Shown piece by piece: positions 7,471 to 48,520 of a stretch of 53,475 bases of DNA. The stretch covers positions 1 to 53,475 of the forward strand of contig JAZRHU010000016.1 of the NCBI GenBank assembly GCA_045644945.1, read 5' to 3'. Position 1 is the first letter of the stretch. Each line of letters begins with the position of its first letter. This stretch comes from Candidatus Fimimonas sp. (GTDB lineage Bacteria > Bacillota > Clostridia > Christensenellales > CAG-314). The translations under genes were made by a program, and so were the position numbers. The notes under the pieces are model-generated. The model ran no database searches. It was not told the origin of the DNA and saw nothing but the letters and a program-made list of their open reading frames with translations.

Positions 7471-7507
7471 AAAAAGCGGTACACATTGCGTGGCCGCTTT
7501 TTTTTTG
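7471..7507 (+). terminator. Putative intrinsic terminator
   Basis: AAAGCGG...CCGCTTT stem followed by TTTTTTTTT. Confidence 0.55.
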
Positions 7508-10237: not shown

Positions 10238-10258
10238 CAATGTAAAAAGGGTAAGTTT

Positions 10259-12997: not shown

Positions 12998-13025
12998 ATT
13001 TGTATAACTTGTCAACACAAAAGGT

Positions 13026-14054: not shown

Positions 14055-14131
14055 AATGATGGCTTTTTTCTTTTTTATGCGTCCATATCACGATTTGGGG
14101 CGCAATTAATATCGGAATTCTTCCAATTTAC

Positions 14132-14160
14132 TTTACAAGCCATTTTTTGTGTGCTAAAAT
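14132..14160 (+). promoter_or_regulatory. Putative promoter for the degV-fakA operon
   Basis: TTTACA (14132-14137), 17-nt spacer, then TAAAAT (14155-14160). Confidence 0.45.
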
Positions 14161-14213
14161 GTTATACTAGAAAAGTATATTTTTTAGTATAAAAAATAAA
14201 GAGGATTAAATTT

Positions 14214-31930: not shown

Positions 31931-31999
31931 AACCGATACCTCCTTGTTAGATTTGGCTGACATTTGTTTATTTATCCGCGGCCAAATGCGGATGGGATA

Positions 32000-34565: not shown

Positions 34566-34920
34566 AGCAAGAGGATTTTTTCCGCTTGTGGTCTTTTGGC
34601 GTACTTTTTGTACGTTCGTTTGATCACACATGCCAATACGTACGGAGTAGTGCACATATTTGTGTACTGTCCTCCCTATTGACATCAACGGCGGTCAAAA
34701 TCACTCTTTTTTTGTTGCGATTTGCACGTCCAACATTCGTATAGCAAATTTATAACTTAGTTATCCAGCTGTACTTGTTTGATTGCAAATTCGCACATGC
34801 GTGTATGAGGTATTTTTTTGTTACACATTTTGTCGAATTTTGGCACATTGCGTAACACCTCACAAGATTATCAAGGCAAATTGCCTGTTAATAAAAAAAC
34901 AAAACACAAGGAGAAAAGTT

Positions 34921-36084
34921 ATGATGACAAAAAAGACAATGACTATTTTGAGCGTATTCATGATAGTCGCACTCACAGCAGTCGGTTTTGCTGCATGGTT
35001 GATTGTTGGTACAATCGACGCTGAAACAACCGGCTCATTCGTTTCTAACGAACTCAAGGACAAGTACTTCAAGGTTGAAGTTGAGTTTGACACAACAGAC
35101 TCCAAAGAGAATGGTAAAATTGTATTCGGTAGACCAGCTACTGCTTACAATAATTCTTCCGATGCATGGTTGTCTTACTCCAACAAGGATGCAGTAGAAC
35201 ACCTTACTTCAAGAGCTACTGTAAAGTTCATCCCTGATGATGGCTTCCTTAAAAACGACACAAAGCCAGAAGAAAATCGTGACATGAAATACTACTTGGA
35301 AGAAGTAATCGAAAACGAAGATGCTACTTCCAGTACAGTGCAACACCGCACAGTTCGTGTAGTTATTGACATTCTTGATGTAATCGGCGAAGGTGCAACA
35401 CACAACTACAAGTGGTTTGACATGGCAGTTGAACTTGGTTACATCCAATACCCAACAGCATACGTTCTTGAAAGGGATGCAGGCGGCACAATTATAGCCG
35501 ACCAAACTTATGCAACAGCATCTCATCCACTTAAATGGTACACAAACGAATCTGCTACAGTTGCAGAAGAAGAATTGGTTACACTTGATGAAAGTGCGAA
35601 CGAATTCAAAAAATTCGAAAAAGGTGTTCTTGCTATTGACCTCGATGCAGATATGTTCTTTGTTAACTATGACGGAGATGGCAAAGCTAAAGAAGCTACA
35701 GTAGAAATTATGATCGATTTTGCTTGGGGCAAAATGATGAAGTTGATTGAAAGCGGAAAGGAAGTATTTGCTAACCCATACAAATACTTTAGCACAGTAA
35801 AACCCGAAGATGCTGTTGATGTTACTAAGTATCTCATTGAGTCAACAGGAATTCTTGGCGATACTAGACCATATCCACAAAAAGATGAAATTGCTGGCAT
35901 TGAAGGTGTTGAAAACGATGATGCAGCAACAATCCGTTACAAAGACCTTGCACAAAAAATGCTCGATTATCTTCGTGACTATTTGAATTATGTACCAGCT
36001 GACGCGGAAGCTGACCCAGTAGTACAAGAATCGGGTGTTAGATTCAGCATTATTTTGCTCGAAGGCAAACCTGATGTTGCATAA
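34921..36084 (+). CDS. Secreted acidic protein, 387 aa, with the VGFAAW N-terminal motif
   Basis: Start set at ATG 34921 (AAGGAGAA RBS). N-terminus MMTKKTMTILSVFMIVALTAVGFAAWLIVG. Confidence 0.8.
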   Translation: MMTKKTMTILSVFMIVALTAVGFAAWLIVGTIDAETTGSFVSNELKDKYFKVEVEFDTTDSKENGKIVFGRPATAYNNSSDAWLSYSNKDAVEHLTSRATVKFIPDDGFLKNDTKPEENRDMKYYLEEVIENEDATSSTVQHRTVRVVIDILDVIGEGATHNYKWFDMAVELGYIQYPTAYVLERDAGGTIIADQTYATASHPLKWYTNESATVAEEELVTLDESANEFKKFEKGVLAIDLDADMFFVNYDGDGKAKEATVEIMIDFAWGKMMKLIESGKEVFANPYKYFSTVKPEDAVDVTKYLIESTGILGDTRPYPQKDEIAGIEGVENDDAATIRYKDLAQKMLDYLRDYLNYVPADAEADPVVQESGVRFSIILLEGKPDVA

Positions 36085-36131: not shown

Positions 36132-37328
36132 ATGAGATCTACAAGACGTGGATTTGGTCGCAGAGCTTTGTCCTTTGGTTTGGCAATTTTCTGCGCAATC
36201 ACACTTATGTCCGTCGGTTTCGCTGCATGGGTATTGTCCAACAATGCCAATCTCGAATCCGGTGGCGGAATCACAACTGAAACAATCACAGACAAATCCG
36301 TTAACATTGTTATCACCAATGCTGACAAAAACAAGGTGCTCTACGACTCCGTTGACGAAAATGGTGTAGGTACAGGTAAACAAAACCTTGTATTTGGTCA
36401 CTTGCCAGTAGATAACCCAGATGCTAACAAGGGCTTTATCCAAACTGACGGCGAAGATGGCAAGGCAGATAACGAAGACTTGCAATTTGTTGTTAAGGGT
36501 ACCGTTGATAACGTAGACAAAATCGGTCAATTGCACTTCCAAGTGCGCGTTCCCGATAGTCTTATTGCTGCAGCTGGTCTTAGCAAGGTTGCTGATACTT
36601 GGTCCTACGACCCTGCAAAGGCATTCATCAGATTGCCAAGCTTTGCAAGAGATAGCCAAGGTAACCAAATTCCTTACATCACAGGCACACTTACAGCTCC
36701 AGATGCTGACGGCAAAGTTAAGTACGAATTCCCAGCTAAAACAGACAACTGGACAGGACGAATGACAGAGGACGTTCTTTGGGAAGATCCATCTGCTTTG
36801 TTGACATCTGGTTCCGGTACTGCTGTTATCACAGACTTGGACGGCAATCAATACACAATCAAGTATGTTTCCGGCAGAACTGACAAGTTGGAATTCGAAT
36901 TGACAGTTAACTTCTACTGGGGTGCAAGATACCTTGGTATGAATCCTAACTACTTCTACGACGTAAACGAAAGAGTAAAGGGTACACACGACCAACTTAC
37001 AACTGATGTTCCAAACCCATACACCACAACCAACATGGATTTGGTTAACTACGACTTGTTGCTTGTTCAAGCCGTTATCAATGGCCTTAGCCTTGAAGAC
37101 TACTTGACAGCTAACAACGTTGATGCAACTGAAATCTACAAAGATACAGGTATCGAGTTGAATGGTGCAACTTTGGAAGACTACATCAAGTCTAATCCAG
37201 ATGGCATCAAGGCAAAACTTGGCATTTTGCAAGAAAACATTGCAACAGCAATTGCAAACTTGGGCAAGGACGACAACCACAAGAATGCTCCACTTTACGC
37301 ATTCTGGATTTACGCAGACGTAAAATAG
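36132..37328 (+). CDS. Secreted acidic protein, 398 aa, with the VGFAAW N-terminal motif
   Basis: AAGGAGAA RBS. N-terminus MRSTRRGFGRRALSFGLAIFCAITLMSVGFAAWVLSN. Confidence 0.85.
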   Translation: MRSTRRGFGRRALSFGLAIFCAITLMSVGFAAWVLSNNANLESGGGITTETITDKSVNIVITNADKNKVLYDSVDENGVGTGKQNLVFGHLPVDNPDANKGFIQTDGEDGKADNEDLQFVVKGTVDNVDKIGQLHFQVRVPDSLIAAAGLSKVADTWSYDPAKAFIRLPSFARDSQGNQIPYITGTLTAPDADGKVKYEFPAKTDNWTGRMTEDVLWEDPSALLTSGSGTAVITDLDGNQYTIKYVSGRTDKLEFELTVNFYWGARYLGMNPNYFYDVNERVKGTHDQLTTDVPNPYTTTNMDLVNYDLLLVQAVINGLSLEDYLTANNVDATEIYKDTGIELNGATLEDYIKSNPDGIKAKLGILQENIATAIANLGKDDNHKNAPLYAFWIYADVK

Positions 37329-37531: not shown

Positions 37532-37574
37532 TGTATAATGATAGTTCACCCAAGGCAATACGCGGCCTTGGGTG
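37532..37574 (+). promoter_or_regulatory. Extended -10 element (TGTATAAT) followed directly by a perfect 10-bp hairpin in the sipW-like leader
   Basis: TGTATAAT at 37532-37539. Hairpin CACCCAAGGC/GCCTTGGGTG at 37547-37574, followed by CTATGTGTTTT. Confidence 0.4.
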
Positions 37575-37657
37575 GCTATGTGTTTTAGAAAGTGTTTAAA
37601 TCGCGTATGTGCTAACATCTGTTAGCCCAAAAAATATCTAAAATCAAGGTTTTTAAC

Positions 37658-38722
37658 ATGTCTCAACAACAAATCATCGCATTGGTGGTCACAGCCATCG
37701 GTGTGGGAAGTTTCTTGGTGGTGTTTACCATTTTGTTTGCAAACTTCCGCAAGTTTTCCGTCAACGAAATCAAAAGTGGAAAACGCGACATCGAGCTGAT
37801 TCAGGACTACTTCCATAACAAAAATCCCAAAGTTATCGCGCGCAGAAAGGCAAACAAGGTCGTTCGCGACGTGTTATTTGTGCTGTTTTTGTTGCTTGTG
37901 TTGTTTAGCATTTCCTTTACTTTGGTATCGCGTTTTACCGACAAATTACCTATTGGAACAAAAACTTTGATGGTTGTCGCAACCGACTCGATGAGCGAGA
38001 AACATTCCGACAACGACTACCTACAAAACTACGACAATCAATTTCAACAATACAGTATCATCGTTTTGGAAAAGGTGGATCCAAACGATTTGGAAAAGTA
38101 CGATGTAATTGCTTACAAAACATCTACAGTAACACTAATTCACCGTATTGTTGGCATAGAAAAAACCACCACAAGCACACGCTATGTTACCTGTGGCGAC
38201 AAGTATTCTCACGAAACCAAAACCGACCCCTACAAACCTTCACAAAAGGACGTTATTGGTCGCTATACCGGTGTGGAAATACCCTTCTTTGGCTCAATTG
38301 TTTTGTTTTTGCAAGCCCCCGCAGGACTCATCACAATGTTAGCGCTACTTGTTTGTATGTTGATGTTCGACACCAACAGCGGACAAATCAGCAAGGAACA
38401 ACAAAAGCGCACCGATTTTCTTTTGACAATTCTCGATATCGACAACATGACGGACAAAACGAAACTAAGTGTCGATTTCGTTGAAAAAATATATCTCGAC
38501 AAAGTTGCTTACTCTTTTAGTAGCGAAGGACTTGTTAGCAAGGATGTTGCAACGGAAGTGCTAATTAGCCATCACCGCTTGCCTCCACAAGATGCCATCA
38601 CGCAAGTGGTGCAACCTGTCGAACCCTCAACGGACGTGACGGAAATTTCCTCCGACACTCCAGCCGATGTGCCAACAAACACATCGGTATCCCCAACCGA
38701 CACAGACGAAAGCAATAGCTAA
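37658..38722 (+). CDS. Signal peptidase I of the archaeal/ER (SipW, S26B) type with an extra N-terminal helix and a long C-terminal extension, 354 aa
   Basis: VVATDSMSE (Ser box), VTLIHRIVGI (His box rather than Lys) and CGDKYSHETKTD (GD box). There is a further TM helix and a ~110-aa Ser/Thr/Pro/Asp-rich tail. Confidence 0.75.
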   Translation: MSQQQIIALVVTAIGVGSFLVVFTILFANFRKFSVNEIKSGKRDIELIQDYFHNKNPKVIARRKANKVVRDVLFVLFLLLVLFSISFTLVSRFTDKLPIGTKTLMVVATDSMSEKHSDNDYLQNYDNQFQQYSIIVLEKVDPNDLEKYDVIAYKTSTVTLIHRIVGIEKTTTSTRYVTCGDKYSHETKTDPYKPSQKDVIGRYTGVEIPFFGSIVLFLQAPAGLITMLALLVCMLMFDTNSGQISKEQQKRTDFLLTILDIDNMTDKTKLSVDFVEKIYLDKVAYSFSSEGLVSKDVATEVLISHHRLPPQDAITQVVQPVEPSTDVTEISSDTPADVPTNTSVSPTDTDESNS

Positions 38723-38858: not shown

Positions 38859-40640
38859 ATGTTAAAGGCAATTTATACTCGTAAAAACTACATCACAATC
38901 GCATTGGCTTGTATGTACTCATTTTTGATGGTTTTTGTTGGTCTTTGCTTGGACAATGGTTCCACAATGCTTAGCCCCAAGAACCCCATCAACATGTTGG
39001 GTGCAGCCATCGGTTTGCCCGCAGTAACACCAAACATCAATGGTATCATCACGCTGTTTTTGTGTGGCGTGTTCTTTGCAGTGTTTGTAGCCGCTGTTAT
39101 CTACCAACATCGCGTAGCAGTTGTGGCAGGCAGAAAACCATTCTCTTTCAAGATGGTGATGGCTTACATTCTTACTGCATTTGTGTGCTTGGCACTTTCC
39201 GTTGGTGTTGGTATTTTGATCCAAAGCCCAATCACAGCGGAAAATTTGAGCATTTTGCTTAGATACTTGTTCAACACAGTGGTGCTTTCCGCATTGATTT
39301 ACGCAGTTTTGTTTGTTGGTATTGGTTCTGTTGTGATGCTTGTTGTTAACTTTATTTTGATCGACAAGCCATTTAGAGGTACCGAACAAGATGAACCTGT
39401 CTTTGACGATGACGATATCCACGACGTTTCCGGCAGTTTTGACGTTGATGCAAACTCCAACACAACAGGTGCAGCAGGTGGCACAGGTGGTGCTGGTGGC
39501 GAAGGCGGCGGTGGCGGTGGTGGCCAAACAATGAATCTTGGCGACCGCGAAAAGGTATTCCCCGAGCTTTCAAGCATCGACAACAAGTACGATGGTTTTG
39601 ATGCTATCCCAGTAGATAGCGATCCAGTATCTTTGGAAGAACTTGCAACTGGATTTAGAAATTTCCTTGCAAAAAACCATCAATTGTACTTCGATATTGA
39701 TGTAATCCGCTTCTTTATCAGCGGTTTTGGCGCATCTCACTTCGAAATTTTGGAAGGTTTGTCTGGTACAGGTAAGTCCTCCTTGCCAAGATACTTTGCA
39801 AAGTATGTTAACGGTAACGTTTTGTTCATGCCAGTACAAGCAACATGGCGTGACAAGACAAGTATTTTGGGCTTTTTCAACGAATTCTCTCAAACCTATT
39901 CCGAAACAGAGTTTTTGACAAAGTTGTACGAATCTGCTTACAACACAGACGAAGTAAACATCTACGTTTTGGACGAAATGAACATCAGCCGTGTAGAATA
40001 CTACTTTGCTGACCTTCTTTCCGTACTTGAGTACCCAGTTGAAGATTGGAAGCTTAAGATTATGAACGTTCCTCACACATTTGTTCCACCAATCAAGTTG
40101 GAAGATGGTTACGTTCGCATCCCAGAAAACAGCTACTTTGTTGGTACAGCCAACCGAGACGACAGTACATTTACCATCACAGACAAGGTTTACGACCGTG
40201 CCATCACTTTGGACTTCGAAGCGCGCAACACACCATTCAAAGTTGACCACGAAGTTTCCTCCATTCGTCTTTCTGGCTCCTATTTCCGTCAATTGTTCAA
40301 TGATGCAATGGCAAACGGAACACACCTTACAGAGGAAGACAAGGCCAAGTTGGACAAGGTTATCAACTTTGTATTCGACAAGTTTGACCTTACAATCGGT
40401 AACCGTATCATGAACCAAATCTACAACATCGTTCCTGTGTTTGTAGCTTGTGGCGGTACAAAGGAAGATGCACTTGACTTTATGCTTTGCAAAAAGTTGT
40501 TTGCCAAGTTGGAAGGCCGTTTCGAAGAATACGTAAAAGTAGCTCTTAGTGAAACATTGAGCTTGATTCGCAATGTCTACGGCAAAGGCGTGCTCAAGCG
40601 TTGCGAAAGAGTTTTGGAAAAGATCGAAAGATCCTTGTAA
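38859..40640 (+). CDS. Polytopic membrane domain plus Gly-rich linker plus McrB-type (COG1401-like) AAA+ NTPase, 593 aa
   Basis: 4-5 hydrophobic helices in aa 1-170. Linker GAAGGTGGAGGEGGGGGGGQ. Walker A GLSGTGKS. IYVLDEMNISRVEYYFADLLSVLE and FVGTANRDDSTF resemble the McrB-family signature. Confidence 0.7.
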   Translation: MLKAIYTRKNYITIALACMYSFLMVFVGLCLDNGSTMLSPKNPINMLGAAIGLPAVTPNINGIITLFLCGVFFAVFVAAVIYQHRVAVVAGRKPFSFKMVMAYILTAFVCLALSVGVGILIQSPITAENLSILLRYLFNTVVLSALIYAVLFVGIGSVVMLVVNFILIDKPFRGTEQDEPVFDDDDIHDVSGSFDVDANSNTTGAAGGTGGAGGEGGGGGGGQTMNLGDREKVFPELSSIDNKYDGFDAIPVDSDPVSLEELATGFRNFLAKNHQLYFDIDVIRFFISGFGASHFEILEGLSGTGKSSLPRYFAKYVNGNVLFMPVQATWRDKTSILGFFNEFSQTYSETEFLTKLYESAYNTDEVNIYVLDEMNISRVEYYFADLLSVLEYPVEDWKLKIMNVPHTFVPPIKLEDGYVRIPENSYFVGTANRDDSTFTITDKVYDRAITLDFEARNTPFKVDHEVSSIRLSGSYFRQLFNDAMANGTHLTEEDKAKLDKVINFVFDKFDLTIGNRIMNQIYNIVPVFVACGGTKEDALDFMLCKKLFAKLEGRFEEYVKVALSETLSLIRNVYGKGVLKRCERVLEKIERSL

Positions 40641-40800
40641 TTTGGTGTATTTTTGTACATCCATCAACATTGTTTCTTACTACACATCAGCACTTGTGCA
40701 ACACAAAAATGACCTTGTTGCACAGTGTTGAAATAGTGGTGCAAAATATCAAAAACACACCACGTATAGCCAAAAAATTGAAAGTAACCGGAGTCTTTTT

Positions 40801-42087
40801 ATGAGAAGTGTCGAAAAAGTTTCATTACAGGAATTTGTTTCCGATATGAAAGATTACTGCGTGAGTTATCCAACTGGTCTGGATTTTTATTCCAATCTGG
40901 ACAAGTTGCCAATGAACTCATTGCAGTCCTTGTCATGCGAAAAAGACCGCGACTATCTCAAGCAAGTGGACCGCATTTTGCGCATTGTTATGTCCATCAT
41001 TTCCCATCCACACATTTCCAACAAGCGCGAGGAAATTGTAACTCGTATCGAGCAAGCAAAACAACTTTCCGAAGAAGAGTTTAGACGTGTTTTGCAAAGT
41101 GGTAACATGTGGAAACGTCACGATGCCAAGATGGTGCCAGAAGACGTCTACTACTACCAACACGTAGACGAACTTGCCATCTACGAAAACCAATTTATTT
41201 GTTTGCTGATTGATTTGTTAGACAAAGACTTGGCAATGTATGGCGAGTTTTACATCGCTTTGTTGCCTAGCTATACCGAAGACCATCCCGAAATGATTTC
41301 CGGCGAGGAGTCGCAACTGGTTTTGCGTCAAATCGACAGATTGCGCAAACGCATCAGCTTCATCAAGAACACCCATTTCTACAAGGAAGTTAGCAAAGTT
41401 AAACGAATTTCTCGCAACATCCAACGTACAAACATTTTGCTCAAAGATAACTTGTACAAGCAAACTTTCCGTTTTTACAGACAGTTTATCAGCTACGAAA
41501 ACGAAGGCGTAGTGTACGAGGACTTGCAAAACTTCTACTTTGTTTTGATTCTCAAGGATTTGTTCAAACGCGGATTTAAGTTTGATGGTTCTGCAACTGT
41601 TTTTGGCAAACCCGTTTGGAACTTTGTTGGCGAGCAGTTCAAGATCAAGTTAACATTTGACAAAAACAAATTCGGCTTCGACTTTGTAATTGCCGACCAA
41701 TACAGCAACAGATTGGCTCGTCACTTGTTGCTTTTGTCACCAACAATCAGTTTTTCCGAGGTTCGTGATCCCGAAATCGACGTTTGGGATACTGTCGATG
41801 CACTTTCTTTGTGGAACTGTGTCGATATGGAAGATAATATCAAACGACCCATCGAAAAGCCTTTGAGCGAGGCGCAATTGGTAGCAAACTGGTTGGATAA
41901 CAAACTTGCACACACCATTGCAAACGAGGATGTGTACAGCCATTACTGCCCCGTATGCAAAAACAAAAATATCGATATCAAGGATGGTTTGCATATCTGC
42001 ATGAAGTGCAAATCTCACTACGTATTTACTCGCAATAAAAATAGCAACACAGTTTTGTGGTTTACAAAACTTCGGAGAGCAAAATGA
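40801..42087 (+). CDS. McrC/DUF2357-like partner protein with a C-terminal zinc ribbon, 428 aa (tentative assignment)
   Basis: It sits directly after the McrB-like gene. AIYENQFICLLIDLL resembles the N-terminal McrC/DUF2357 region. C-terminal CPVCKNK...CMKCKSHY. I could not see a clear PD-(D/E)xK motif. Confidence 0.45.
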   Translation: MRSVEKVSLQEFVSDMKDYCVSYPTGLDFYSNLDKLPMNSLQSLSCEKDRDYLKQVDRILRIVMSIISHPHISNKREEIVTRIEQAKQLSEEEFRRVLQSGNMWKRHDAKMVPEDVYYYQHVDELAIYENQFICLLIDLLDKDLAMYGEFYIALLPSYTEDHPEMISGEESQLVLRQIDRLRKRISFIKNTHFYKEVSKVKRISRNIQRTNILLKDNLYKQTFRFYRQFISYENEGVVYEDLQNFYFVLILKDLFKRGFKFDGSATVFGKPVWNFVGEQFKIKLTFDKNKFGFDFVIADQYSNRLARHLLLLSPTISFSEVRDPEIDVWDTVDALSLWNCVDMEDNIKRPIEKPLSEAQLVANWLDNKLAHTIANEDVYSHYCPVCKNKNIDIKDGLHICMKCKSHYVFTRNKNSNTVLWFTKLRRAK

Positions 42088-42842
42088 GCGTAAACGAAAA
42101 CAACAATCAAACAAAAACGCCCTCTATTGTCATAACGGAACTGCACAAGTCCTATGGCAAAAAGCAGGTGCTAAAAGGCCTCAACTTGGAAGTGTTCCCT
42201 GGCGAGTTGTTTGGCTTTATCGGTAAGAACGGTATTGGTAAATCTACCACAATCGACTGTGTTATTGGTAGCAAAAAGTTCAATTCCGGTACCATCTTGC
42301 TAAATGGTTACGACATCAAAAATGAGCCATTGCTTGCAAAATCGCAATTTGGCTACGTTGCAAGTGAGCCATCCTGCTACGACGTTATGACCGGCTACGA
42401 GTACTTGGAGTTTATTGCCAGCATCTACAACGTTTCCGAAGGTGATTTTGTCCGCAACATGCGTTACCTTTGCAATCGTTTGAAGCTAGACCAAAAGGAA
42501 CTTGGCAACCGCATTGCTAACTACTCCCACGGTATGAAACAAAAACTTTGTTTGGTGGGTAGCTTGTTGTACAATCCATCCATTTGGATTTTGGACGAAC
42601 CAACTGTTGGTTTGGATATCATGGCGGTGGAAGAACTAAAACGAATGATGCGCGAATATGCAAATCATGGCAAAACAGTTTTTGTAACATCACACAACAT
42701 CGACTTGGTAAGCCGACTTTGCGACCGAGTTGCAATCATAAACGAAGGTCAAGTAGCGGTGCTATACGACCTCAACAAAGAACCAAACCGTCGCTTGCAC
42801 CTATCTCGTGCATTTATGAAAATTTACGGAGAAGAAGAGTAA
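42084..42842 (+). CDS. ABC transporter ATP-binding protein
   Basis: Walker A GKNGIGKST, signature YSHGMKQKL, Walker B ILDEP. Start at ATG 42084, overlapping the upstream stop (ATGA). Confidence 0.9.
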   Translation: MSVNENNNQTKTPSIVITELHKSYGKKQVLKGLNLEVFPGELFGFIGKNGIGKSTTIDCVIGSKKFNSGTILLNGYDIKNEPLLAKSQFGYVASEPSCYDVMTGYEYLEFIASIYNVSEGDFVRNMRYLCNRLKLDQKELGNRIANYSHGMKQKLCLVGSLLYNPSIWILDEPTVGLDIMAVEELKRMMREYANHGKTVFVTSHNIDLVSRLCDRVAIINEGQVAVLYDLNKEPNRRLHLSRAFMKIYGEEE

Positions 42843-42846: not shown

Positions 42847-44439
42847 ATGATCAATCTACTGATAAAAGACTTTAGACTTATGTTCGGAAACAAACAGAGT
42901 GCGTCACAACGTATTATCTCTGGTGTTTTTTCCGTACTGTTTTTCGTGGCTTTTATCGTGATTGAAGTGTTTTTGTTCCGTACAATCCTAAAAACTATCA
43001 AAGACATCAAACATGCATCTACTGCATTTTTGACAGTATTTTTACTTATCACAACGATATTTATCACAATTGGTAACCTTTTCCAAGCAAAAAGATTATT
43101 TTTCGACGCAAAGGATATAGAGCAACTTTCCAATCGCCCCGTATCCAATACTCAAATCATTTTGTCTAAACTTTTGTACTTGTTTTTGATCCACTACGCA
43201 ACAAGCTTGATGTTTGAGTATCCACTTTTTGTGGCGTATGGTCTATTGGCTAACAAAATGCCAATGTTCTACTACTTGTGTTTGTTCTACCCAGTTGCAA
43301 CATTTTTCTTCTCGATGGGTGTTGCGTTGCTTCTTGTTTACCCACTTTGGTTGTTTACAAAGTTTATCAAACGCCATTTTTGGTTGGAAATGAGTGTTTC
43401 GTTGGTACTTATTTGTGGTCTTACCATTGCATACTCCTATGTCTTGGATATTTTCATCAAATTGGTTGCCAATAACGACCTTCTTTCCTTGTTCTCGCAA
43501 GAGTCCATCAATAGCTTTATCAAATTCCAAAACTATGCCTTCCCTGTAAACTTTTTGGTAGATATTTTCTTCAATAAGCATGCAACGGCATTGTTCCCAT
43601 ATCTTTGTATATCCATTGGCGTGTTCGGATTGGGACTTTCGGTGGCAATTTTTGCATTTGGTGATGTTCGTAACATTTCTTCGAACACAACAGTCAACCA
43701 AAAGGAACGCCCCTACAAGTCCACATCCGTAACTACTGCGCTAATCAAAAAGGAGTTTAGCTTGATCGGCAAAAACTCCGACTATATATTCAGCTACACA
43801 GGACTATTAATTGCTCAGCCACTTTTGTTGTACTTTGTTACAAAGTCCATGAACACAGTGCTTGGCAGTGGCACAATCCAATACTTTGCAAAGCTTGTTC
43901 CTGGTCTAATTGACTATGTTGATATTTTGCTGATGATGCTATTTACCGTTATCATCAACCAAGGTGCAAACAGTTACATCACCATGGAAGAGCGCACAAT
44001 CAAAAACATGAAGACAATTCCTGTGCCATTTGGCAAGCAATTGTTCATCAAGGTAGCAATTCCATTTGGACTTTCCACAATTTCGCTGATTGTCAGTTGT
44101 TTGGTTTTGTGGTTGACAAAAACAGTAACATTGCAACTTGCATTGTTTGCATTGCTAATTTCGGTAGTGCTTTTGTTTGTATTCCAAATCATCTCCCTTT
44201 GGGAGGAGTTGTCCATTCGTCACGGCAAACCCAGGACATCGTCTATGTCCACATTGTTTGCATACCTTTTGCCCATTGTATATGCGGTTACCGCTATCAT
44301 TTTGTCATACACAGGCCTTCCAACAGCAGTCACAATTTTGGGTGGTCTTGGTGTTATTGCAGTTATTGGTGCCATTCCCGTTATCATCGTATTTACGCGC
44401 GCCAATGATATGTTCTTAAGTTTGGAGGCAATCAACTAA
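42847..44439 (+). CDS. ABC exporter permease-like polytopic membrane protein, 530 aa
   Basis: About 10-12 hydrophobic helices. It starts 4 nt after the ATPase gene. Confidence 0.7.
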   Translation: MINLLIKDFRLMFGNKQSASQRIISGVFSVLFFVAFIVIEVFLFRTILKTIKDIKHASTAFLTVFLLITTIFITIGNLFQAKRLFFDAKDIEQLSNRPVSNTQIILSKLLYLFLIHYATSLMFEYPLFVAYGLLANKMPMFYYLCLFYPVATFFFSMGVALLLVYPLWLFTKFIKRHFWLEMSVSLVLICGLTIAYSYVLDIFIKLVANNDLLSLFSQESINSFIKFQNYAFPVNFLVDIFFNKHATALFPYLCISIGVFGLGLSVAIFAFGDVRNISSNTTVNQKERPYKSTSVTTALIKKEFSLIGKNSDYIFSYTGLLIAQPLLLYFVTKSMNTVLGSGTIQYFAKLVPGLIDYVDILLMMLFTVIINQGANSYITMEERTIKNMKTIPVPFGKQLFIKVAIPFGLSTISLIVSCLVLWLTKTVTLQLALFALLISVVLLFVFQIISLWEELSIRHGKPRTSSMSTLFAYLLPIVYAVTAIILSYTGLPTAVTILGGLGVIAVIGAIPVIIVFTRANDMFLSLEAIN

Positions 44440-47057
44440 TGAAAAAGAAAAATTTATTGGTTCTTTTGATGATTCCATTCTTAATTTCCACCCTTACCAT
44501 TGTTTCCGTTAACATGACGTACGACTTGGTAGACGTGGATATCTCCTATATCGAGTGGGAATACGAAGATATTGTTGCCTACCAAATAACAAACGAGCTT
44601 ATTCCACTAAATGCAAAGGGCGTAAACCAACGTCATAACGAAGTAAGTTCCGGCAACAACCTTATTTGGACTGTTACCAATCAAGATGGAAGCCCCGACC
44701 CCTATGCAACAATCGTCAAGCAAGGGGATAGCTACTTCCTAAAAACATTGCTCGAAGGTGACGTAATAGTTACCTGTTCCAATCAAAAGGGCAATGTATC
44801 ACGTAGCTTTAGCTGTATCGTATTCAAGGATGGCTACATCTCCATTCGTCCAGCAATTGCAAACAGTCGTGTAGGCAAGGTGGACGATACCATCTACTTT
44901 GGCGAGTACGACTTTACCCCAAGTGGCGAAAGAGGCAGTGCTTCCTTCGATATCGTGGTGGAGTGTCGTCCAGCAAGCGTAATTTCCAGTTTGTCTCAAG
45001 AGTCCATCACACTTTCTGATACGCTCACATTGGATATTGATTTTGCCGATGCAACGGAGTCTCAAGGCGCAGTTCGCGTGATGGGTACTGTAAATGTGGA
45101 CGTTACCAACTGGAATCAACAAAATTCCCAAGCAAACATAACAGTTACATCATCCATTGATAGCTACAAACCAGGTATTTTCGATTTCCAAATTGTTCGA
45201 GATGGCTACAATGTTTACAACTATCAACAATTGTTGGACTGCACAAATCGTTCTGTCGAAGGCAAAATCGCCGTTTTGCAAGTATCTTTCGATAGCGAGC
45301 ATAACTATGCCGACTACCTTGCTACAACAAGTCATCAAGTCAAGTATCACAATGTCAAGTGTATGGGCGACCTAGATGGTAATGGCAAAGCAGATTTTGC
45401 ACTAGATAACGGCACAGTAGTGCCCATCAGAACAAAGTACAATCACTTGTACCTTGACCAATGGAACAAAACCAACCCCGACTCCAAAATTAGTTTGGAT
45501 GTTTTAACGGGTTTGTACGTTCAAAAAGATTTCTACGGAAATGGCCACTCTATCAACTTCCACGATTTGACATACCCATCTAGAGGCGGTACCATTGTTG
45601 ATGGCAATGTAACACCTCCCGAACTTGCTGATGAAGACTTGTTTAGAGGCCCTAAATCCTTCTACACAGTAGGCACACCAAGTGGCGAAGGTATCAACCT
45701 CATCACAATCTACGGCCAAGATAACTCCGGCATGTATGCGCGAGGTAACCTTGTTATCAACGATGTTTCCTTGCAAAACTGCGATAACGATGGTAAACCA
45801 CTTAGCTTTTTGGATACTGTCGGCACAGTTTTGGATGTAGATACCGACTTGGATAACAACTTGGAGCCAGACAGAGACGTAAAAGTTATTGTACAAAACT
45901 GCCGACTTTCCAATGGCAAAAACATTGTACGTAGTTTTAGTAGCAATTTGCTTTTAGATAACTGCATGCTATCCAACGCTCACAACTTCCTGTTCTTTAC
46001 AGGTTCCAACAAGTTTGTTCAAGCTGATGGCAACAAAACTCACTCATTTGTTTCCAAAGAGGGAAATGTTTCCTCAACGTTGTACGATTTCTTGAGCAAA
46101 AATGGCCCAGCAAATGCAATTTTGGACGACTATCTTGCTGCAAAGTACGGCGAAGGTCATGTATTCAAGGACTCCGTTCAAATGCAAAACTGCCTGTATG
46201 GTACAGGTGGCAAAATGAATCCTAACTCCATTCAAGCTGCACTTACAACCAACTTGGCAGGTCAATTCAAGGGCGAAGCAGAAATCAAGGATTGCATAAT
46301 GAACACATCTGGCATTGCAGCAATTGCAATGGAAAGTTTGTTCAATGGCCCATACCTGTTCAATAACAGTATCCCTAACACAATTTCCGGCTTGTTCGAG
46401 TTTGCCGATAGCCTTGGCTTGTCTGCGTTCAATTGCTCTAACATTTCCGGCACATCCTACCCTGTAAAAGTAACGCTTAGTGGTTCCACCAAGTTCTACG
46501 ACTACAAGGAGCTGGACAAAATTGACCTAAGCGGTTTGGTTCACGAGGATATTTCCGACTTCCTAAGTATGTTTGGAAGTTTGACGGGTAACAACAACTA
46601 CAACGTCACAATTGACGAAATCTTCCCCATCAAGAACCTGCTAAACAGATACGCTACCCAAAATGGTTACAACGGCGAAAACAGCCAATACAAGGGCAAA
46701 GTGAATATTCCTGTTGTATTCTATGGGGGTGGCGCAAACTACTCCGAGTTGACAATTGACGAAGGTGCCGATTTGTTCAACGACAGTTACATTGGTCTGC
46801 GCGAAGGCACCGTGCAATCTGCACAAGTAAACCTTTTGGATAGATACATGTATCTGCCAAAGGTTTCCCCAATCGGTTTGGTACAACAATATGCCAAAAT
46901 TGATTTGGACAAAAACACACTTATCAAAACAGTAACAATTGTTACCGGTTACGAGCCATTTGAGTTTGTGTTTGTAAAAGGCACAAGCTACTACGATAAC
47001 TACCTGTCCAAGCAACCAACCAACTTGCTTGAACAACTCAAGAACAACGCAAAGTAG
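44439..47057 (+). CDS. Membrane-anchored extracellular protein with a parallel beta-helix-like region, 872 aa
   Basis: N-terminal anchor KKKNLLVLLMIPFLISTLTIVSV. Repeated N-x-hydrophobic rungs (NCRLSNGKNIVRSFSSNLLLDNCMLSNAHNFLFF). 1-nt overlap with the permease stop. Confidence 0.7.
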   Translation: MKKKNLLVLLMIPFLISTLTIVSVNMTYDLVDVDISYIEWEYEDIVAYQITNELIPLNAKGVNQRHNEVSSGNNLIWTVTNQDGSPDPYATIVKQGDSYFLKTLLEGDVIVTCSNQKGNVSRSFSCIVFKDGYISIRPAIANSRVGKVDDTIYFGEYDFTPSGERGSASFDIVVECRPASVISSLSQESITLSDTLTLDIDFADATESQGAVRVMGTVNVDVTNWNQQNSQANITVTSSIDSYKPGIFDFQIVRDGYNVYNYQQLLDCTNRSVEGKIAVLQVSFDSEHNYADYLATTSHQVKYHNVKCMGDLDGNGKADFALDNGTVVPIRTKYNHLYLDQWNKTNPDSKISLDVLTGLYVQKDFYGNGHSINFHDLTYPSRGGTIVDGNVTPPELADEDLFRGPKSFYTVGTPSGEGINLITIYGQDNSGMYARGNLVINDVSLQNCDNDGKPLSFLDTVGTVLDVDTDLDNNLEPDRDVKVIVQNCRLSNGKNIVRSFSSNLLLDNCMLSNAHNFLFFTGSNKFVQADGNKTHSFVSKEGNVSSTLYDFLSKNGPANAILDDYLAAKYGEGHVFKDSVQMQNCLYGTGGKMNPNSIQAALTTNLAGQFKGEAEIKDCIMNTSGIAAIAMESLFNGPYLFNNSIPNTISGLFEFADSLGLSAFNCSNISGTSYPVKVTLSGSTKFYDYKELDKIDLSGLVHEDISDFLSMFGSLTGNNNYNVTIDEIFPIKNLLNRYATQNGYNGENSQYKGKVNIPVVFYGGGANYSELTIDEGADLFNDSYIGLREGTVQSAQVNLLDRYMYLPKVSPIGLVQQYAKIDLDKNTLIKTVTIVTGYEPFEFVFVKGTSYYDNYLSKQPTNLLEQLKNNAK

Positions 47058-47064
47058 GAGGACT

Positions 47065-48318
47065 ATGTTTATGCGTAAGACAATTCCACTAATAGCATTG
47101 CTAATTGCAATGTGCTTTATATTGACTGCCTGTGGATCCTTTATGGAATGGGGCAACGAGGAAGTAAAGCAAATTGAAAAGATTGACAAACACACCGATG
47201 CAAATGGTGTGGTTTACATGGATATCTATTTTGTTGGCGAGGATAATCCTCAAAGTATCCCATTGCCAAGCGGTGCCGATGGTACAAGTATCAGCTTTGA
47301 TGCCAAGTACAATCAAGACGAACGCAAAACAGTTGTAACTGTGTCCTTTAGCGATGGTTCCCCAAACAAGGTGTTTGATATCAAAGACGGTCAATCCATC
47401 ACAAGTGTGGTTATTTCCGAAGGGGAAATTGGTATTGGCGACGTTTTGTGTTTCTACTGCGGTAACGATTTGGTTGGCGAAATCCCAATGTCTCAAATCA
47501 GAGGTAAGGATGGTGCAACTTGGTTAACAGGTACATCCGCTCCAGATGATGCAGTAGGCAAGGATGGCGACTTCTATCTCAACACAGCAAAATTTGATGT
47601 GTACATCAAAAAGGGCGAAACTTGGACAACTGTTGGCAATCTTACTGGTGCAGGTATCGACAAGATTGAAACCTACGAGTCTGCAGATGGCAGTGGTATC
47701 AAAATTACCTACAACGAACAAAGTGGCTGGGAGCCAACAATCGTTCTTTGCCCAGGTATCACAGATATTAACCTCAAACTTTCCGATGACAAAAAGGAAT
47801 TTGTTTTCGAAGTTGTTTTGAGTAACGGCATTGTAGACGAAAATGGCGTTACACAAACTTTCAGCAAGGAGTTTGCTATTGCTCGTTTCCCACAATGGGA
47901 GTCTGGCACAAACTTCCCCGGCGAAGATGATGGTATCGTTGGCGACTTCTACTTCTACGAACCAACCCAAACAATCTTGCACAAAAAGTCCACTGGTTGG
48001 GTAACAATCATCAGCTTTAACGAACTTTTGAACCAAGGCAACGACAAAGTTAATGTTACTTTTGATGCTCTTGGTGGCCAAATGACAATCACAGGTTACA
48101 CTAATCCTACCGAAAAGTACGAAATGTCCGTAACAAAGGGAGCATTTGTTCATTGTGACCTCATTCCAATTCCAACAAAGGACGGCTTTACATTTGGTGG
48201 TTGGTACACAGTACCTAATCCAAACCCACTTGTAAATGGCAGATTTACCGACATGGTTCCAGTATCTCAAAACATCACATTGTACGCTTACTGGATTCCC
48301 AATGGCTCTTCCAATTAG
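47065..48318 (+). CDS. Lipoprotein with a C-terminal Listeria-Bacteroides (Flg_new) repeat
   Basis: Lipobox ILTAC|GS after MFMRKTIPLIALLIAMCF. C-terminal GFTFGGWYTV...ITLYAYW. AGGAGG RBS. Confidence 0.8.
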   Translation: MFMRKTIPLIALLIAMCFILTACGSFMEWGNEEVKQIEKIDKHTDANGVVYMDIYFVGEDNPQSIPLPSGADGTSISFDAKYNQDERKTVVTVSFSDGSPNKVFDIKDGQSITSVVISEGEIGIGDVLCFYCGNDLVGEIPMSQIRGKDGATWLTGTSAPDDAVGKDGDFYLNTAKFDVYIKKGETWTTVGNLTGAGIDKIETYESADGSGIKITYNEQSGWEPTIVLCPGITDINLKLSDDKKEFVFEVVLSNGIVDENGVTQTFSKEFAIARFPQWESGTNFPGEDDGIVGDFYFYEPTQTILHKKSTGWVTIISFNELLNQGNDKVNVTFDALGGQMTITGYTNPTEKYEMSVTKGAFVHCDLIPIPTKDGFTFGGWYTVPNPNPLVNGRFTDMVPVSQNITLYAYWIPNGSSN

Positions 48319-48384: not shown

Positions 48385-48520
48385 TTTTACCATAAAGAGT
48401 GCGTGAGGGACAGCCCCACAGACCGCACAGCAACCTACTAGATTGGCAAGGTGCTAAAGGCTGAACGATGGGTAAAATTGTAGTCGTGCGAACCCATCGT
48501 CATCGATGGGTTTTTCTTTT
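48385..48520 (+). promoter_or_regulatory. SAM-I clan (S-box-like) riboswitch with terminator expression platform
   Basis: The P1 stem pairs TTTTACCAT with ATGG(G)TAAAA. Conserved elements are AGAG, GAGGGA, GCAACC and AAGGTGCTAA, and the P2 stem pairs GTGCG with CGCAC. P4 is short or absent. The terminator AACCCATCG/CGATGGGTT plus a T-run (48491-48520) can alternatively pair with the P1 3' strand. Confidence 0.65.

What the first reader, a model, noticed from the sequence alone, without database searches (positions are those of the whole stretch)
38859..42087. Membrane-anchored McrB-type AAA+ NTPase with a zinc-ribbon partner that shows no nuclease motif
**ATPase gene (593 aa).**
- It starts with 4-5 predicted transmembrane helices (aa 1-170).
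- An acidic stretch and a pure Gly/Ala linker follow (GAAGGTGGAGGEGGGGGGGQ).
- The C-terminal NTPase has motifs GLSGTGKS, VQATWRDKTSILGF, IYVLDEMNISRVEYYFADLLSVLE, FVGTANRDDSTF and DRA. These match what I recall as the McrB/COG1401 branch of AAA+ (LDEMN...EYYF.D.LS..E, N..D.S).

**Why this is unusual.** Characterised McrB homologs carry N-terminal nucleic-acid reader domains. I know of no described family in which a polytopic membrane domain replaces the reader.

**Partner gene (428 aa).**
- It sits where McrC would sit.
- It has a YENQF...LL segment reminiscent of McrC/DUF2357 N-termini.
- I cannot find a PD-(D/E)xK nuclease motif. It ends in a CxxC...CxxC zinc ribbon.

Together this suggests an McrBC-derived motor repurposed at the membrane. 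The function could be defence signalling or non-defence.
Basis: partly seen in the sequence, partly recalled or inferred. Interest (0 to 1): 0.85.

Follow-up and report, generated by a model that had tools for sequence, protein, structure and literature searches.

The report
Membrane-anchored McrBC-like motor in secretion operon
Two genes derived from the McrBC DNA-restriction machine have lost their DNA reader and nuclease active site, gained a four-helix membrane anchor, and sit inside a strictly conserved nine-gene operon of gut Firmicutes that looks built to process and export surface proteins.

Summary
ORF 38859-40640 encodes four transmembrane helices, a disordered acidic/Gly linker and an intact P-loop NTPase. 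ORF 40801-42087 encodes a McrC N-terminal domain (Pfam DUF2357, above threshold), a poorly conserved beta-rich middle and a conserved C-terminal zinc ribbon. No nuclease family or conserved catalytic triad was found. The fusion is real: full-length homologs occur in over 100 protein clusters and 47 genomes.

The NTPase profile aligns to E. coli McrB (hhalign E 1.9e-5) but not to the MoxR protein RavA. It carries the N-x-D-[D/E] signature of the 'NxD' McrB branch (Bell et al., eLife 2024).

The pair sits in a conserved operon: 2-3 secreted proteins with an invariant G-F-A-x-W signal, an active SipW-type signal peptidase, TM-McrB, the McrC-like protein, an ABC-2 exporter, a ~850-aa anchored protein and a lipoprotein. 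Searching from the 850-aa gene, 65 of 65 sufficiently long loci carry both McrB- and McrC-like genes. Median gene gaps are 3-5 nt.

The closest described relative is 'CoCoPALM', named only in passing and uncharacterised. It has a different membrane module, coiled coils and no ABC transporter.

Most likely this is a cytoplasmic NTPase ring driving or gating assembly or export of SipW-processed surface proteins, not restriction. The function is inferred, not shown.

The parts
34783..36084 (+). g03: secreted or anchored protein, paralog class of g04. The likely true start is the ATG near 34921 (MMTKK...). The N-terminus is K/R-rich, then about 20 hydrophobic residues, then VGFAAW.
   Evidence: motif shared with g04 homologs; partial conservation in related loci
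36132..37328 (+). g04: putative SipW substrate or structural subunit. The N-terminal signal ends in an invariant G-F-A-[AST]-W. The rest is fast-evolving and has no known family.
   Evidence: G29 F30 A31 invariant, W33 >=90%; no Pfam/PDB/NCBIfam match; present in 62/65 loci
37546..37575 (+). Terminator-like hairpin (11-bp stem, 7 G-C) in the 330-nt gap between g04 and the signal peptidase gene. It may attenuate transcription after the subunit genes.
   Evidence: consensus scan only
37658..38722 (+). g05: SipW/archaeal-type signal peptidase I with extra N-terminal TM hairpin and C-terminal tail. The catalytic Ser, His and Asp boxes are intact.
   Evidence: TIGR02228 55.5 bits > cut-off 51.85; S111-M112, H162-R163, G180-D181, D190 invariant in 28 sequences; present in 64/65 loci
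38859..39365 (+). TM-McrB, membrane module (aa 1-169): four TM helices, N-in/C-in. Conserved residues lie in the outer loops (N42, P124, E128, N129).
39366..39542 (+). TM-McrB, flexible tether (aa 170-228): acidic stretch plus a Gly/Ala-rich low-complexity linker, variable in length and sequence among homologs.
   Evidence: pLDDT < 50 for 167-224; variable columns
39543..40640 (+). TM-McrB, McrB-type AAA+ NTPase domain (aa ~229-593). Motifs: Walker A G300-S307, Walker B D372-E373, sensor-1/signature N432-R-D434-D435, R447.
   Evidence: hhalign vs E. coli McrB E 1.9e-5, prob 77.8%, RavA control 0.6%; AAA_5 E 0.0025; PADLOC PDC-M26A 2.3e-30; N-x-D-[DE] in 134/150 representatives
40801..42087 (+). 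McrC-like partner. DUF2357 lies at aa 57-226 (nt 40969-41478). A weakly conserved beta-rich middle at aa ~257-370 sits where a nuclease domain would be. The Zn ribbon lies at aa ~379-425 (nt 41935-42075).
42057..42842 (+). g08: ABC-2-type exporter ATPase (DrrA/GldA-like). Its ORF overlaps the partner's stop.
   Evidence: Pfam ABC_tran 2.5e-23, TIGR01188 7.8e-49; 65-98% identical in all related loci
42847..44439 (+). g09: 530-aa polytopic ABC-2-like permease.
   Evidence: weak ABC2_membrane_4; conserved at the same length in all loci
44439..47057 (+). g10: 872-aa protein with an N-terminal signal or anchor and a large, well-conserved extracytoplasmic part of no known family.
   Evidence: relatives in 269 genome loci
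47029..48318 (+). g11: lipoprotein (invariant Cys after L-x-G; likely start near 47071) with a C-terminal Listeria-Bacteroides repeat (Flg_new).
   Evidence: Flg_new in 22/23 homologs

Best explanation
The two genes encode a McrBC-derived NTPase pair that has been taken out of DNA restriction and built into a membrane machine.

**Shown.**
- The 593-aa protein is a four-helix membrane anchor joined by a floppy acidic/Gly tether to an intact McrB-type ('NxD' branch) AAA+ domain.
- The 428-aa partner keeps the McrC N-terminal domain (DUF2357). In the one profile comparison run, against E. coli McrC, it gave no significant match.
- No nuclease family or conserved catalytic residues were detected in the partner, and it ends in a conserved zinc ribbon.
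- Both genes are obligate, tightly packed members of one operon. The operon also holds 2-3 secreted proteins with a family-specific G-F-A-x-W signal peptide, an active SipW-type signal peptidase, an ABC-2 exporter, a large anchored extracytoplasmic protein and a lipoprotein.

**Inferred.**
- By homology with McrB and McrC, six TM-McrB subunits would form a cytoplasmic ring held under the membrane by 24 TM helices.
- The McrC-like protein would plug the ring and trigger NTP (probably GTP) hydrolysis, as McrC does for McrB.
- The resulting conformational work, or an on/off timer, would be passed to the membrane module to drive or gate processing, extraction and assembly or export of the SipW substrates.
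- The end product would be a surface structure, that is a filament, matrix or coat. The logic parallels TasA/SipW or BsaA/SipW with an added motor and ABC exporter.
For: **Anatomy.**
- ORFs, TM helices, linker and motifs.
- The catalytic motifs are invariant in 30 homologs: G300-S307, D372-E373, N432, D434-D435, R447.

**McrB assignment.**
- hhalign against E. coli McrB gives E 1.9e-5 over 145 columns. The RavA control gives prob 0.6%.
- phmmer against the PDB gives McrB as the only AAA+ hit.
- PADLOC PDC-M26A matches at 2.3e-30.
- The N-x-D-[DE] motif is present in 134/150 representatives. This matches the NxD branch defined in PMC11090510.

**Partner.**
- DUF2357 scores 33 bits against a GA of 23.3 and is found in 29/44 homologs. 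No PD-(D/E)xK family matches in any.
- The Cys ligands are invariant.

**Operon coupling.**
- Gene order is conserved down to 44% ATPase identity.
- From the g10 side, 65/65 loci have McrB-like and McrC-like genes, 64/65 have SipW and 62/65 have a g04-like gene.
- Median gaps are 3 nt (sipW to mcrB) and 5 nt (mcrB to mcrC).
- Flanks outside the operon differ between lineages.

**Independent support.**
- A sister clade in Acholeplasma, Izemoplasma and RF39-like Bacilli links a McrB-like protein with SipW peptidases and proteins bearing a G-V-[FY]-A-W-F signal. It has a different membrane module and gene order.

**SipW.** It is catalytically intact.
Against: - No experiment exists for this or the sister clade.
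- The putative substrates and g10 have no detectable homology to TasA or any known fibre protein. 'Surface filament' therefore rests on operon logic.
- TIGR04088-type SipW-cognate signals were not detected by HMM.
- Fold search places the NTPase only in the broad H2-insert AAA+ group, with MoxR, MCM and dynein above McrB.
- The family profile finds nothing in the PDB.
- The partner profile does not align significantly to E. coli McrC, and its model has no PDB fold match.
- The best PADLOC match is to a candidate defence protein, so a defence role is not excluded.
- How a McrB-type ring would act on proteins or membranes has no precedent.
Confidence: 0.6

Rival explanations
1. It is an anti-phage defence system: a Type IV-restriction-derived sensor. 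The Zn-ribbon partner would detect foreign nucleic acid and the NTPase would then activate its own four-helix membrane domain as an abortive-infection effector. The neighbouring secretion genes would be unrelated.
For: The NTPase domain matches PADLOC candidate defence protein PDC-M26A at 2.3e-30. Its wider relatives include the CoCoNuT-type predicted defence systems. TM effectors fused to NTPase sensors are common in defence (general knowledge). Zn ribbons often bind nucleic acids.
Against: - The pair is never found away from the SipW/ABC/g10 genes in 65/65 loci, and gene gaps are 3-5 nt.
- It appears as one locus per genome record recovered.
- It shows strong purifying selection: over 130 invariant positions at 55-85% identity.
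- No nuclease, methyltransferase or other defence gene lies in the operon.
- The partner has no PADLOC hit.
- The sister clade is also tied to signal peptidases.
Confidence: 0.15
2. It is a regulatory or quality-control switch rather than a motor. The NTPase ring with its McrC-like activator would act as a timer. It would license the ABC exporter or the SipW peptidase, or couple envelope status to the cytoplasm through the Zn ribbon, without doing mechanical work on substrates.
For: McrC-stimulated hydrolysis in McrBC is a switch-like step (Niu et al. 2020 as summarised in PMC11090510). The operon already contains a dedicated transport ATPase. The SipW homolog has conserved cytoplasmic extensions that could be docking sites.
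Against: Nothing distinguishes this from the motor model with present data. The extreme conservation of the whole AAA+ domain and the tether architecture fit either.
Confidence: 0.2
3. The NTPase is a MoxR/NorQ-type chaperone AAA+ rather than McrB-type, and the partner's DUF2357 match is fortuitous.
For: The top Foldseek hit is the MoxR-like ATPase 2r44 (E 2.5e-5). NorQ, dynein and MCM follow. McrB is not among the 50 listed. Pfam AAA_5 is below its gathering score.
Against: The hhalign profile matches E. coli McrB (E 1.9e-5, 145 columns) and not E. coli RavA (prob 0.6%). DUF2357 is above the gathering score and recurs in 29/44 homologs. No VWA partner typical of MoxR is present. The N-x-D-[DE] signature is present.
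Confidence: 0.04
4. The TM region and the NTPase are separate genes joined by an assembly or frameshift error.
For: The low-complexity Gly-rich linker (39350-39650) is the kind of sequence where indels arise.
Against: The single-ORF architecture is present in over 100 protein clusters and 47 independent genome assemblies. It persists even though linker length varies.
Confidence: 0.01

Closest known systems
[quoted passage not shown]
   Same: - It has an NxD-branch McrB-type NTPase anchored in the membrane.
- Its partner is a DUF2357 McrC homolog without an evident nuclease.
- It is linked to SipW-type signal peptidases and to secreted proteins whose signal ends in an x-A-W motif.
- Examples seen here are Acholeplasma granularum and A. 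oculi.
   Different: - CoCoPALM as described has a bitopic FtsB-like TM plus coiled coil on McrB and long coiled coils on McrC.
- The window's system has a polytopic 4-TM module, no coiled coils and a Zn-ribbon partner.
- Its peptidase lies upstream instead of downstream.
- It has three extra conserved components: an ABC-2 exporter, g10 and the g11 lipoprotein.
- The two form separate clades in a rough NJ tree.
CoCoNuT systems (CnuB/CnuC), NxD branch of McrBC
   Same: It has the N-x-D-[D/E] signature. McrC homologs often carry an inactivated PD-(D/E)xK fold and a C-terminal zinc ribbon. The soluble 700-800-aa relatives found and the PADLOC PDC-M26A hit probably belong here.
   Different: CoCoNuTs are soluble and have long coiled coils. 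They are always next to HEPN or other nucleases and are predicted RNA-targeting defence systems. Here there is a membrane anchor, no coiled coil, and no nuclease anywhere in the operon.
Canonical McrBC (E. coli K-12 Type IV restriction enzyme)
   Same: It has an AAA+ core with Walker A/B, a sensor-1 Asn and a downstream Arg. It has a partner with the DUF2357 domain encoded immediately downstream.
   Different: There is no N-terminal DNA-reading domain and no PD-(D/E)xK active site. The signature is N-x-D-D rather than N-T-A-D. It is membrane anchored and lies in a secretion-type operon.
TapA-SipW-TasA (Bacillus subtilis) and SipW-BsaA-BsaB-BsaC (Clostridium perfringens) matrix-fibre operons
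   Same: A dedicated SipW-type signal peptidase is encoded beside 2-3 paralogous secreted proteins with a distinctive signal peptide. BsaA export past the wall is reported to be helped by a separate ATP-driven apparatus (PMC11580942).
   Different: The window's putative subunits show no detectable sequence similarity to TasA or BsaA. Those operons contain no McrBC-like pair and no ABC exporter.
PADLOC candidate system PDC-M26
   Same: Protein A matches the NTPase domain at 2.3e-30.
   Different: Only part of the 724-position profile is matched (positions 307-431 in the best stretch). The partner matches no PADLOC model. No paper on PDC-M26 was found.

Membership tests
McrB-type AAA+ GTPase (Pfam AAA_5 / COG1401) | AAA+ core with Walker A, Walker B (DExN) and sensor-1 Asn, alignable to McrB | tested here: met
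   hhalign family profile vs E. coli McrB: prob 77.8%, E 1.9e-5, aa 282-447 vs 183-348. The control vs RavA gives prob 0.6%. Pfam AAA_5 scores only 18.3 bits against a GA of 22.
McrB-type AAA+ GTPase (Pfam AAA_5 / COG1401) | NxxD / NxD GTPase signature motif | tested here: met
   N432-R-D434-D435 is invariant in 30 homologs. N-x-D-[DE] is present in 134/150 representatives. This matches the 'NxD followed by D/E' definition in PMC11090510. Pairwise alignment cannot tell a deletion from N-R-D-D read as NxxD.
McrB-type AAA+ GTPase (Pfam AAA_5 / COG1401) | N-terminal nucleic-acid-binding specificity domain | tested here: not met
   It is replaced by four TM helices plus a disordered linker. There is no Pfam hit in aa 1-290.
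McrB-type AAA+ GTPase (Pfam AAA_5 / COG1401) | Fold closest to solved McrB structures | tested here: inconclusive
   The Foldseek top 50 are MoxR-like 2r44, MCM, Lon, NorQ, dynein and BrxL. McrB chains are not listed. The whole 593-aa model, including the TM domain, was the query.
McrB-type AAA+ GTPase (Pfam AAA_5 / COG1401) | Hexamer with GTP-specific hydrolysis stimulated by McrC | not testable with these tools
   This needs biochemistry or a multimer model.
McrC | N-terminal DUF2357 domain | tested here: met
   PF09823 scores 33 bits against a GA of 23.3, aa 57-226. 29 of 44 homologs match at E <= 0.01. hhalign against single-sequence E. coli McrC is not significant.
McrC | C-terminal PD-(D/E)xK endonuclease with catalytic D...(D/E)xK | tested here: not met
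   No nuclease family matches in 44 homologs. Region 240-370 has only H308, L310 and E357 near-invariant. Whether the beta-rich region 272-342 is a degenerate PD-(D/E)xK fold could not be resolved, because the whole-model Foldseek search gave no hit.
CoCoPALM (PMC11090510) | NxD-type McrB GTPase | tested here: met
CoCoPALM (PMC11090510) | GTPase fused to FtsB-like TM plus coiled-coil domain | tested here: not met
   It has four TM helices and a Gly/acidic linker, with no coiled coil. The Acholeplasma-type relatives do have a TM plus a leucine-zipper-like segment.
CoCoPALM (PMC11090510) | Association with signal-peptidase-family genes | tested here: met
   A SipW-type peptidase lies directly upstream and is present in 64/65 loci.
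CoCoPALM (PMC11090510) | Coiled coil fused to the McrC homolog | tested here: not met
   The partner ends in a Zn ribbon. Sister-clade partners end in K/E-rich coiled coils without CxxC.
CoCoNuT (PMC11090510) | Long coiled coils plus an adjacent HEPN or other nuclease | tested here: not met
   No such domains are in the pair or its neighbours.
SipW/TasA-type matrix-fibre operon | SipW (archaeal/ER-type) signal peptidase with a catalytic Ser/His/Asp | tested here: met
   TIGR02228 scores 55.5 bits against a cut-off of 51.85. S111, H162, D181 and D190 are invariant.
SipW/TasA-type matrix-fibre operon | TasA-family (camelysin-like) subunit | tested here: inconclusive
   No Pfam, NCBIfam or PDB sequence match for g03/g04. 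Only the conserved G-F-A-x-W signal and the adjacency to SipW point this way.
PADLOC PDC-M26 | Both component proteins present | tested here: not met
   Protein A matches (2.3e-30). The partner and neighbours have no PADLOC hit.

The most novel reading that the evidence does not exclude
The McrBC GTPase engine, known only from DNA restriction and predicted RNA-targeting defence, has been exapted as the cytoplasmic motor of a previously unrecognised protein-export or surface-filament assembly machine. The machine would comprise SipW, 4TM-McrB, McrC-ZnR, an ABC-2 exporter and an anchored 850-aa protein. It is a conserved module of hundreds of gut Bacillota species, including wall-less Anaeroplasma and Acholeplasmatales lineages as well as Christensenellales. 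That would amount to a new kind of secretion or assembly system.
Probability: 0.4. Interest if true: 0.85.

Novelty: new variant of a known kind. Interest (0 to 1): 0.68.

Why it matters
McrBC is a textbook nucleic-acid-directed restriction motor. A branch that has shed the DNA reader and the nuclease and is hard-wired into a membrane and secretion operon would show that this AAA+ engine can be redeployed for envelope biogenesis.

The module is widespread in abundant but poorly cultured gut lineages: Christensenellales, RF39/Acholeplasmatales-like Bacilli and Anaeroplasmataceae. Their surface structures and host interactions are essentially unknown.

All nine proteins are annotated 'hypothetical'. 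A defined gene set, conserved motifs and cultured carriers of the sister system (Acholeplasma granularum ATCC 19168, A. oculi ATCC 27350) make the question directly testable. The result also cautions against scoring every McrB-like hit, for example PADLOC PDC-M26A, as defence.

Tried and rejected
- **Family profiles against PDB sequences.** The ATPase profile A2 found nothing. The partner profile A1 found only ribosomal L37ae-type Zn ribbons. These profiles are too narrow.
- **hhalign of the partner profile against E. coli McrC.** Not significant.
- **Foldseek of the partner model.** No hit at E < 0.001, so the middle domain's fold stays unassigned.
- **Foldseek of the ATPase model.** Generic AAA+ hits only; McrB is not in the list.
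- **Literature.** No paper on PDC-M26. No follow-up on CoCoPALM. The eLife supplement held does not list CoCoPALM accessions. The one 'McrB + SipW' paper mentions mcrBC only in an E. coli genotype.
- **SipW-cognate signal model.** Searches of the putative substrates' N-termini and full lengths against NCBIfam at permissive E-values gave no TIGR04088-type hit.
- **g04 family.** The profile against the PDB, Pfam and the 5.8-billion-protein set returned only hypothetical proteins.
- **G-[FWY]-[AST]-[AST]-[WFY] motif in sister-clade loci.** Found none. Their motif is G-V-[FY]-A-W-F, recovered with a looser pattern.
- **Frameshift or fusion artefact.** Rejected.
- **MoxR assignment.** Rejected on the RavA control and the DUF2357 partner.

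Full report
**1. The observation**

All quoted motifs are in the translations.

A Kyte-Doolittle scan finds hydrophobic spans at about 10-33, 55-91, 94-127 and 130-172. The AlphaFold2 model (mean pLDDT 75.6) resolves these as four long helices at 8-30, 60-89, 97-120 and 127-167. A segment with pLDDT below 50 follows at 167-224, and then an alpha/beta NTPase domain with a C-terminal helical lid. Lys/Arg residues cluster at the N-terminus and in the 82-100 loop. This gives an N-in/C-in topology with a cytoplasmic NTPase.

The fusion is not an assembly artefact.
- More than 100 listed protein clusters at 54-97% identity cover the whole query at about 600 aa.
- 47 independent genome assemblies encode the same single ORF.
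- Only the Gly-rich linker varies in the alignment of 30 homologs. The NTPase core has over 130 invariant positions: Walker A G300-S307, Walker B D372-E373, N432, D434-D435 and R447.

**2. What the NTPase is**

Sequence evidence for a McrB assignment:
- Single-sequence searches are weak. Pfam AAA_5 gives E 0.0025, below the gathering score. phmmer against the PDB gives E. coli McrB at E 0.045 as the only AAA+ hit.
- The family profile aligns to E. coli McrB over 145 columns from Walker A to beyond sensor 1 (hhalign prob 77.8%, E 1.9e-5).
- The same profile against the E. coli MoxR-family protein RavA gives prob 0.6%, covering the P-loop only.
- PADLOC's candidate defence protein PDC-M26A matches at 2.3e-30.

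An exhaustive search with the NTPase domain finds 7670 representatives at 50% clustering, 669 of them below 1e-30. Of the best 150, 134 carry N-x-D-[D/E] at the sensor-1 position. Bell et al. (eLife 2024, PMC11090510) use this signature to define the 'NxD' branch of McrB GTPases, which holds the CoCoNuT and CoCoPALM systems.

Structure comparison is less specific. Foldseek's top hits are a MoxR-like ATPase (2r44, E 2.5e-5), MCM, Lon, NorQ, dynein and BrxL, and no McrB chain is among the 50 listed. The fold therefore says only 'H2-insert-type AAA+'. The McrB assignment rests on sequence profiles, the signature motif and the partner.

**3. What the partner is**

- Pfam DUF2357, the McrC N-terminal domain, matches above threshold at 33 bits against 23.3, aa 57-226. 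It recurs in 29 of 44 homologs.
- The alignment of 44 homologs shows a highly conserved N-terminal half with invariant P70, H71, R82, W104, P113, D123 and Y128-E-N130-x-F132.
- Much of that half is modelled with low confidence (75-86 and 113-123). That would be expected of a segment that folds only inside a ring, though this is an inference.
- The middle region (240-370) is poorly conserved.
- The C-terminal CPxC...CxxC zinc ribbon is invariant. It resembles ribosomal L37ae-type ribbons.
- No PD-(D/E)xK family matches any of the 44 sequences, and no D...(D/E)xK pattern is conserved.
- The beta-rich region 272-342 lies where McrC has its nuclease. According to Bell et al., NxD-branch McrC homologs often have an inactivated PD-(D/E)xK fold followed by a zinc ribbon. 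I could not test the fold of this region alone, because the whole-model Foldseek search gave nothing.

**4. The context, which is the main clue**

The pair lies in a same-strand run of nine genes.
- **g03 and g04:** two paralogous proteins.
- **g05:** a SipW/archaeal-type signal peptidase. TIGR02228 scores 55.5 bits against a cut-off of 51.85. S111, H162, D181 and D190 are invariant in 28 homologs.
- **TM-McrB and the McrC-like protein.**
- **g08 and g09:** an ABC-2 exporter ATPase and a 530-aa permease.
- **g10:** an 872-aa protein with an N-terminal anchor.
- **g11:** a lipoprotein with a Listeria-Bacteroides repeat.

g03, g04 and their homologs share a striking N-terminus: a K/R-rich start, about 20 hydrophobic residues, then an invariant G-F-A-[AST]-W. 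The rest of these proteins evolves fast and matches nothing known.

Evidence that the nine genes form one functional unit:
- The gene order is kept in essentially every related locus, down to 44% ATPase identity.
- The flanks beyond the nine genes differ between lineages.
- Approached from the other side, the g10 family has relatives in 269 genome loci. Of the 65 kept loci with at least 7 kb upstream, 65 have a McrB-like gene, 65 a McrC-like gene, 64 a SipW gene and 62 a g04-like gene.
- Median intergenic distances are 3 nt (sipW to mcrB) and 5 nt (mcrB to mcrC). In the window the partner's stop overlaps the ABC ATPase ORF.

This is a single operon, not a defence island. Carriers are uncultured gut Clostridia labelled Christensenellaceae, Christensenella, CAG:552, CAG:727 and Pumilibacteraceae. 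Others are Bacilli-type MAGs labelled Anaeroplasma bactoclasticum, Anaeroplasmataceae, Acholeplasmatales, Erysipelotrichaceae and 'Staphylococcus sp. CAG:324'. The nearest genome to the window is a goat-colon Clostridia MAG at 96%.

**5. Relatives with other membrane modules**

Among the 150 best representatives, the N-terminal extension defines clades in a rough NJ tree:
- a 4-TM clade of about 50 clusters, including the window;
- a 1-2-TM clade of 450-520 aa;
- several soluble clades of 700-800 aa, probably coiled-coil CoCoNuT-like proteins;
- a clade of about 900 aa with 10-12 TM helices.

The 1-2-TM clade splits by context.
- Lachnospiraceae have McrB-McrC-McrB triplets without a peptidase.
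- Acholeplasma, Izemoplasmatales and RF39-like Bacilli have McrB-McrC followed and/or preceded by SipW-type peptidases. These score 57 and 83 bits on TIGR02228 in A. granularum. They also have three or four proteins whose signal ends in G-V-[FY]-A-W-F.
- Their McrB has a TM segment plus a leucine-zipper-like stretch. Their McrC homologs end in long K/E-rich coiled coils with no CxxC.

[quoted passage not shown] I found no follow-up and no accession list to check membership directly.

A McrBC-like pair is therefore tied to SipW and x-A-W-signal proteins in two clades with different membrane modules and gene orders. That is independent evidence that the link is functional.

**6. How it most likely works**

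Shown:
- an intact McrB-type NTPase tethered to a four-helix membrane domain;
- a DUF2357 partner with no detected nuclease family or conserved catalytic triad, ending in a Zn ribbon;
- obligate operonic coupling to an active SipW, its probable substrates, an ABC-2 exporter and two further envelope proteins.

Inferred from McrBC homology (structural and GTPase-stimulation work summarised in PMC11090510; this partner's profile did not align significantly to E. coli McrC):
- Six subunits form a ring under the membrane.
- The partner's conserved N-terminal segment inserts into the ring and switches on NTP hydrolysis.

Inferred from context:
- The energy or timing is passed through the tether to the 24-helix membrane assembly.
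- That assembly drives or gates cleavage, extraction and assembly or export of the G-F-A-x-W proteins.
- The ABC exporter, g10 and g11 complete the envelope part.

The analogy is TapA-SipW-TasA in Bacillus and SipW-BsaA in Clostridium perfringens. BsaA fibre export appears to need help from a separate ATP-driven apparatus (PMC11580942). A terminator-like hairpin after g04 would fit high expression of subunit genes, but it is only a pattern match.

I put about 0.6 on 'envelope assembly or export motor or gate'. About a third of that mass could equally be a regulatory switch rather than a mechanical motor. I put 0.15 on a defence role and very little on the MoxR or artefact readings.

**7. Comparison and novelty**

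The system works like, and descends from, McrBC. It fails two of McrBC's defining features, the DNA-reading domain and the nuclease. It shares the NxD motif and the signal-peptidase link with CoCoPALM but fails the FtsB-like and coiled-coil features. It adds a Zn-ribbon partner and three conserved genes.

I therefore file it as a new variant of a known but only named and uncharacterised kind. All its proteins are 'hypothetical' in public records.

**8. Limits**

- Function is inferred entirely from sequence and context.
- The tree is a quick NJ on 225 residues.
- TM counts for relatives come from hydropathy only.
- The partner's middle domain, g03/g04 and g10 still need structure prediction.
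- MAG taxonomic labels are as deposited, and some are plainly binning errors. Examples are loci titled Escherichia coli, Parasutterella and Bacteroidales.

Noticed in passing
window 48387-48474 (+) and 48868-51611 (+): A SAM riboswitch (Rfam RF00162, 51.3 bits) sits directly upstream of a TldD/PmbA metallopeptidase gene pair. This is not the usual methionine/cysteine/SAM regulon for this riboswitch.
   Followed up: no
window 23648-31963 (-): A giant 2771-aa ORF has five Listeria-Bacteroides (Flg_new) repeats and a YDG domain. It is divergently oriented upstream of the operon. A comparable giant Flg_new/MBG_2 protein occupies the same position in a relative at 56% ATPase identity. It could be cargo or an associated surface protein.
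   Followed up: partly
window 37546-37575 (+): A strong terminator-like hairpin (11-bp stem, 7 G-C) lies in the 330-nt gap between the putative subunit gene g04 and the signal peptidase gene. It is reminiscent of attenuation after major-subunit genes in pilus operons.
   Followed up: no
loci L052-L077 (Lachnospiraceae MAGs), e.g. L060 7737-11962: These loci hold McrB-like, McrC-like and McrB-like gene triplets: two paralogous 1-2-TM NTPases flanking one coiled-coil DUF2357 protein. No signal peptidase lies within 8 kb. This is a third context type for membrane-anchored McrB homologs.
   Followed up: partly
proteins P0369, P0373, P0376, P0378, P0380, P0384: A clade of roughly 900-aa McrB-like NTPases has 10-12 predicted TM helices N-terminal to the AAA+ domain. 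Their genomic context was not examined.
   Followed up: no
L109 (Acholeplasma granularum ATCC 19168) 4081-14582; L111/L116 (A. oculi ATCC 27350): Cultured, wall-less Acholeplasma species carry the sister system. It has two SipW-type peptidases, four proteins with a G-V-[FY]-A-W-F signal (one a 767-aa protein with CBM_5_12 chitin-binding modules), and an adjacent GGDEF-EAL protein. They are candidates for experimental study.
   Followed up: partly
L003/L010 (uncultured Christensenella sp.) 4623-8144: In this lineage a solute-binding-protein gene and the SipW gene are inserted between the TM-McrB and McrC-like genes. The pair therefore need not be adjacent for the module to persist.
   Followed up: no
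window 37658-38722 (+): The SipW homolog is almost twice the usual length. It has a conserved extra N-terminal TM hairpin with a cytoplasmic G-K-R-D-I-E-L-I motif and a conserved C-terminal cytoplasmic F-V-E-x-I-Y segment. These could be docking sites for the NTPase ring.
   Followed up: no
loci L011/L197, L180, L205: Contigs carrying this Firmicute operon are deposited under the names Parasutterella excrementihominis, Bacteroidales and Escherichia coli. This is most likely metagenomic binning contamination in the public records.
   Followed up: no
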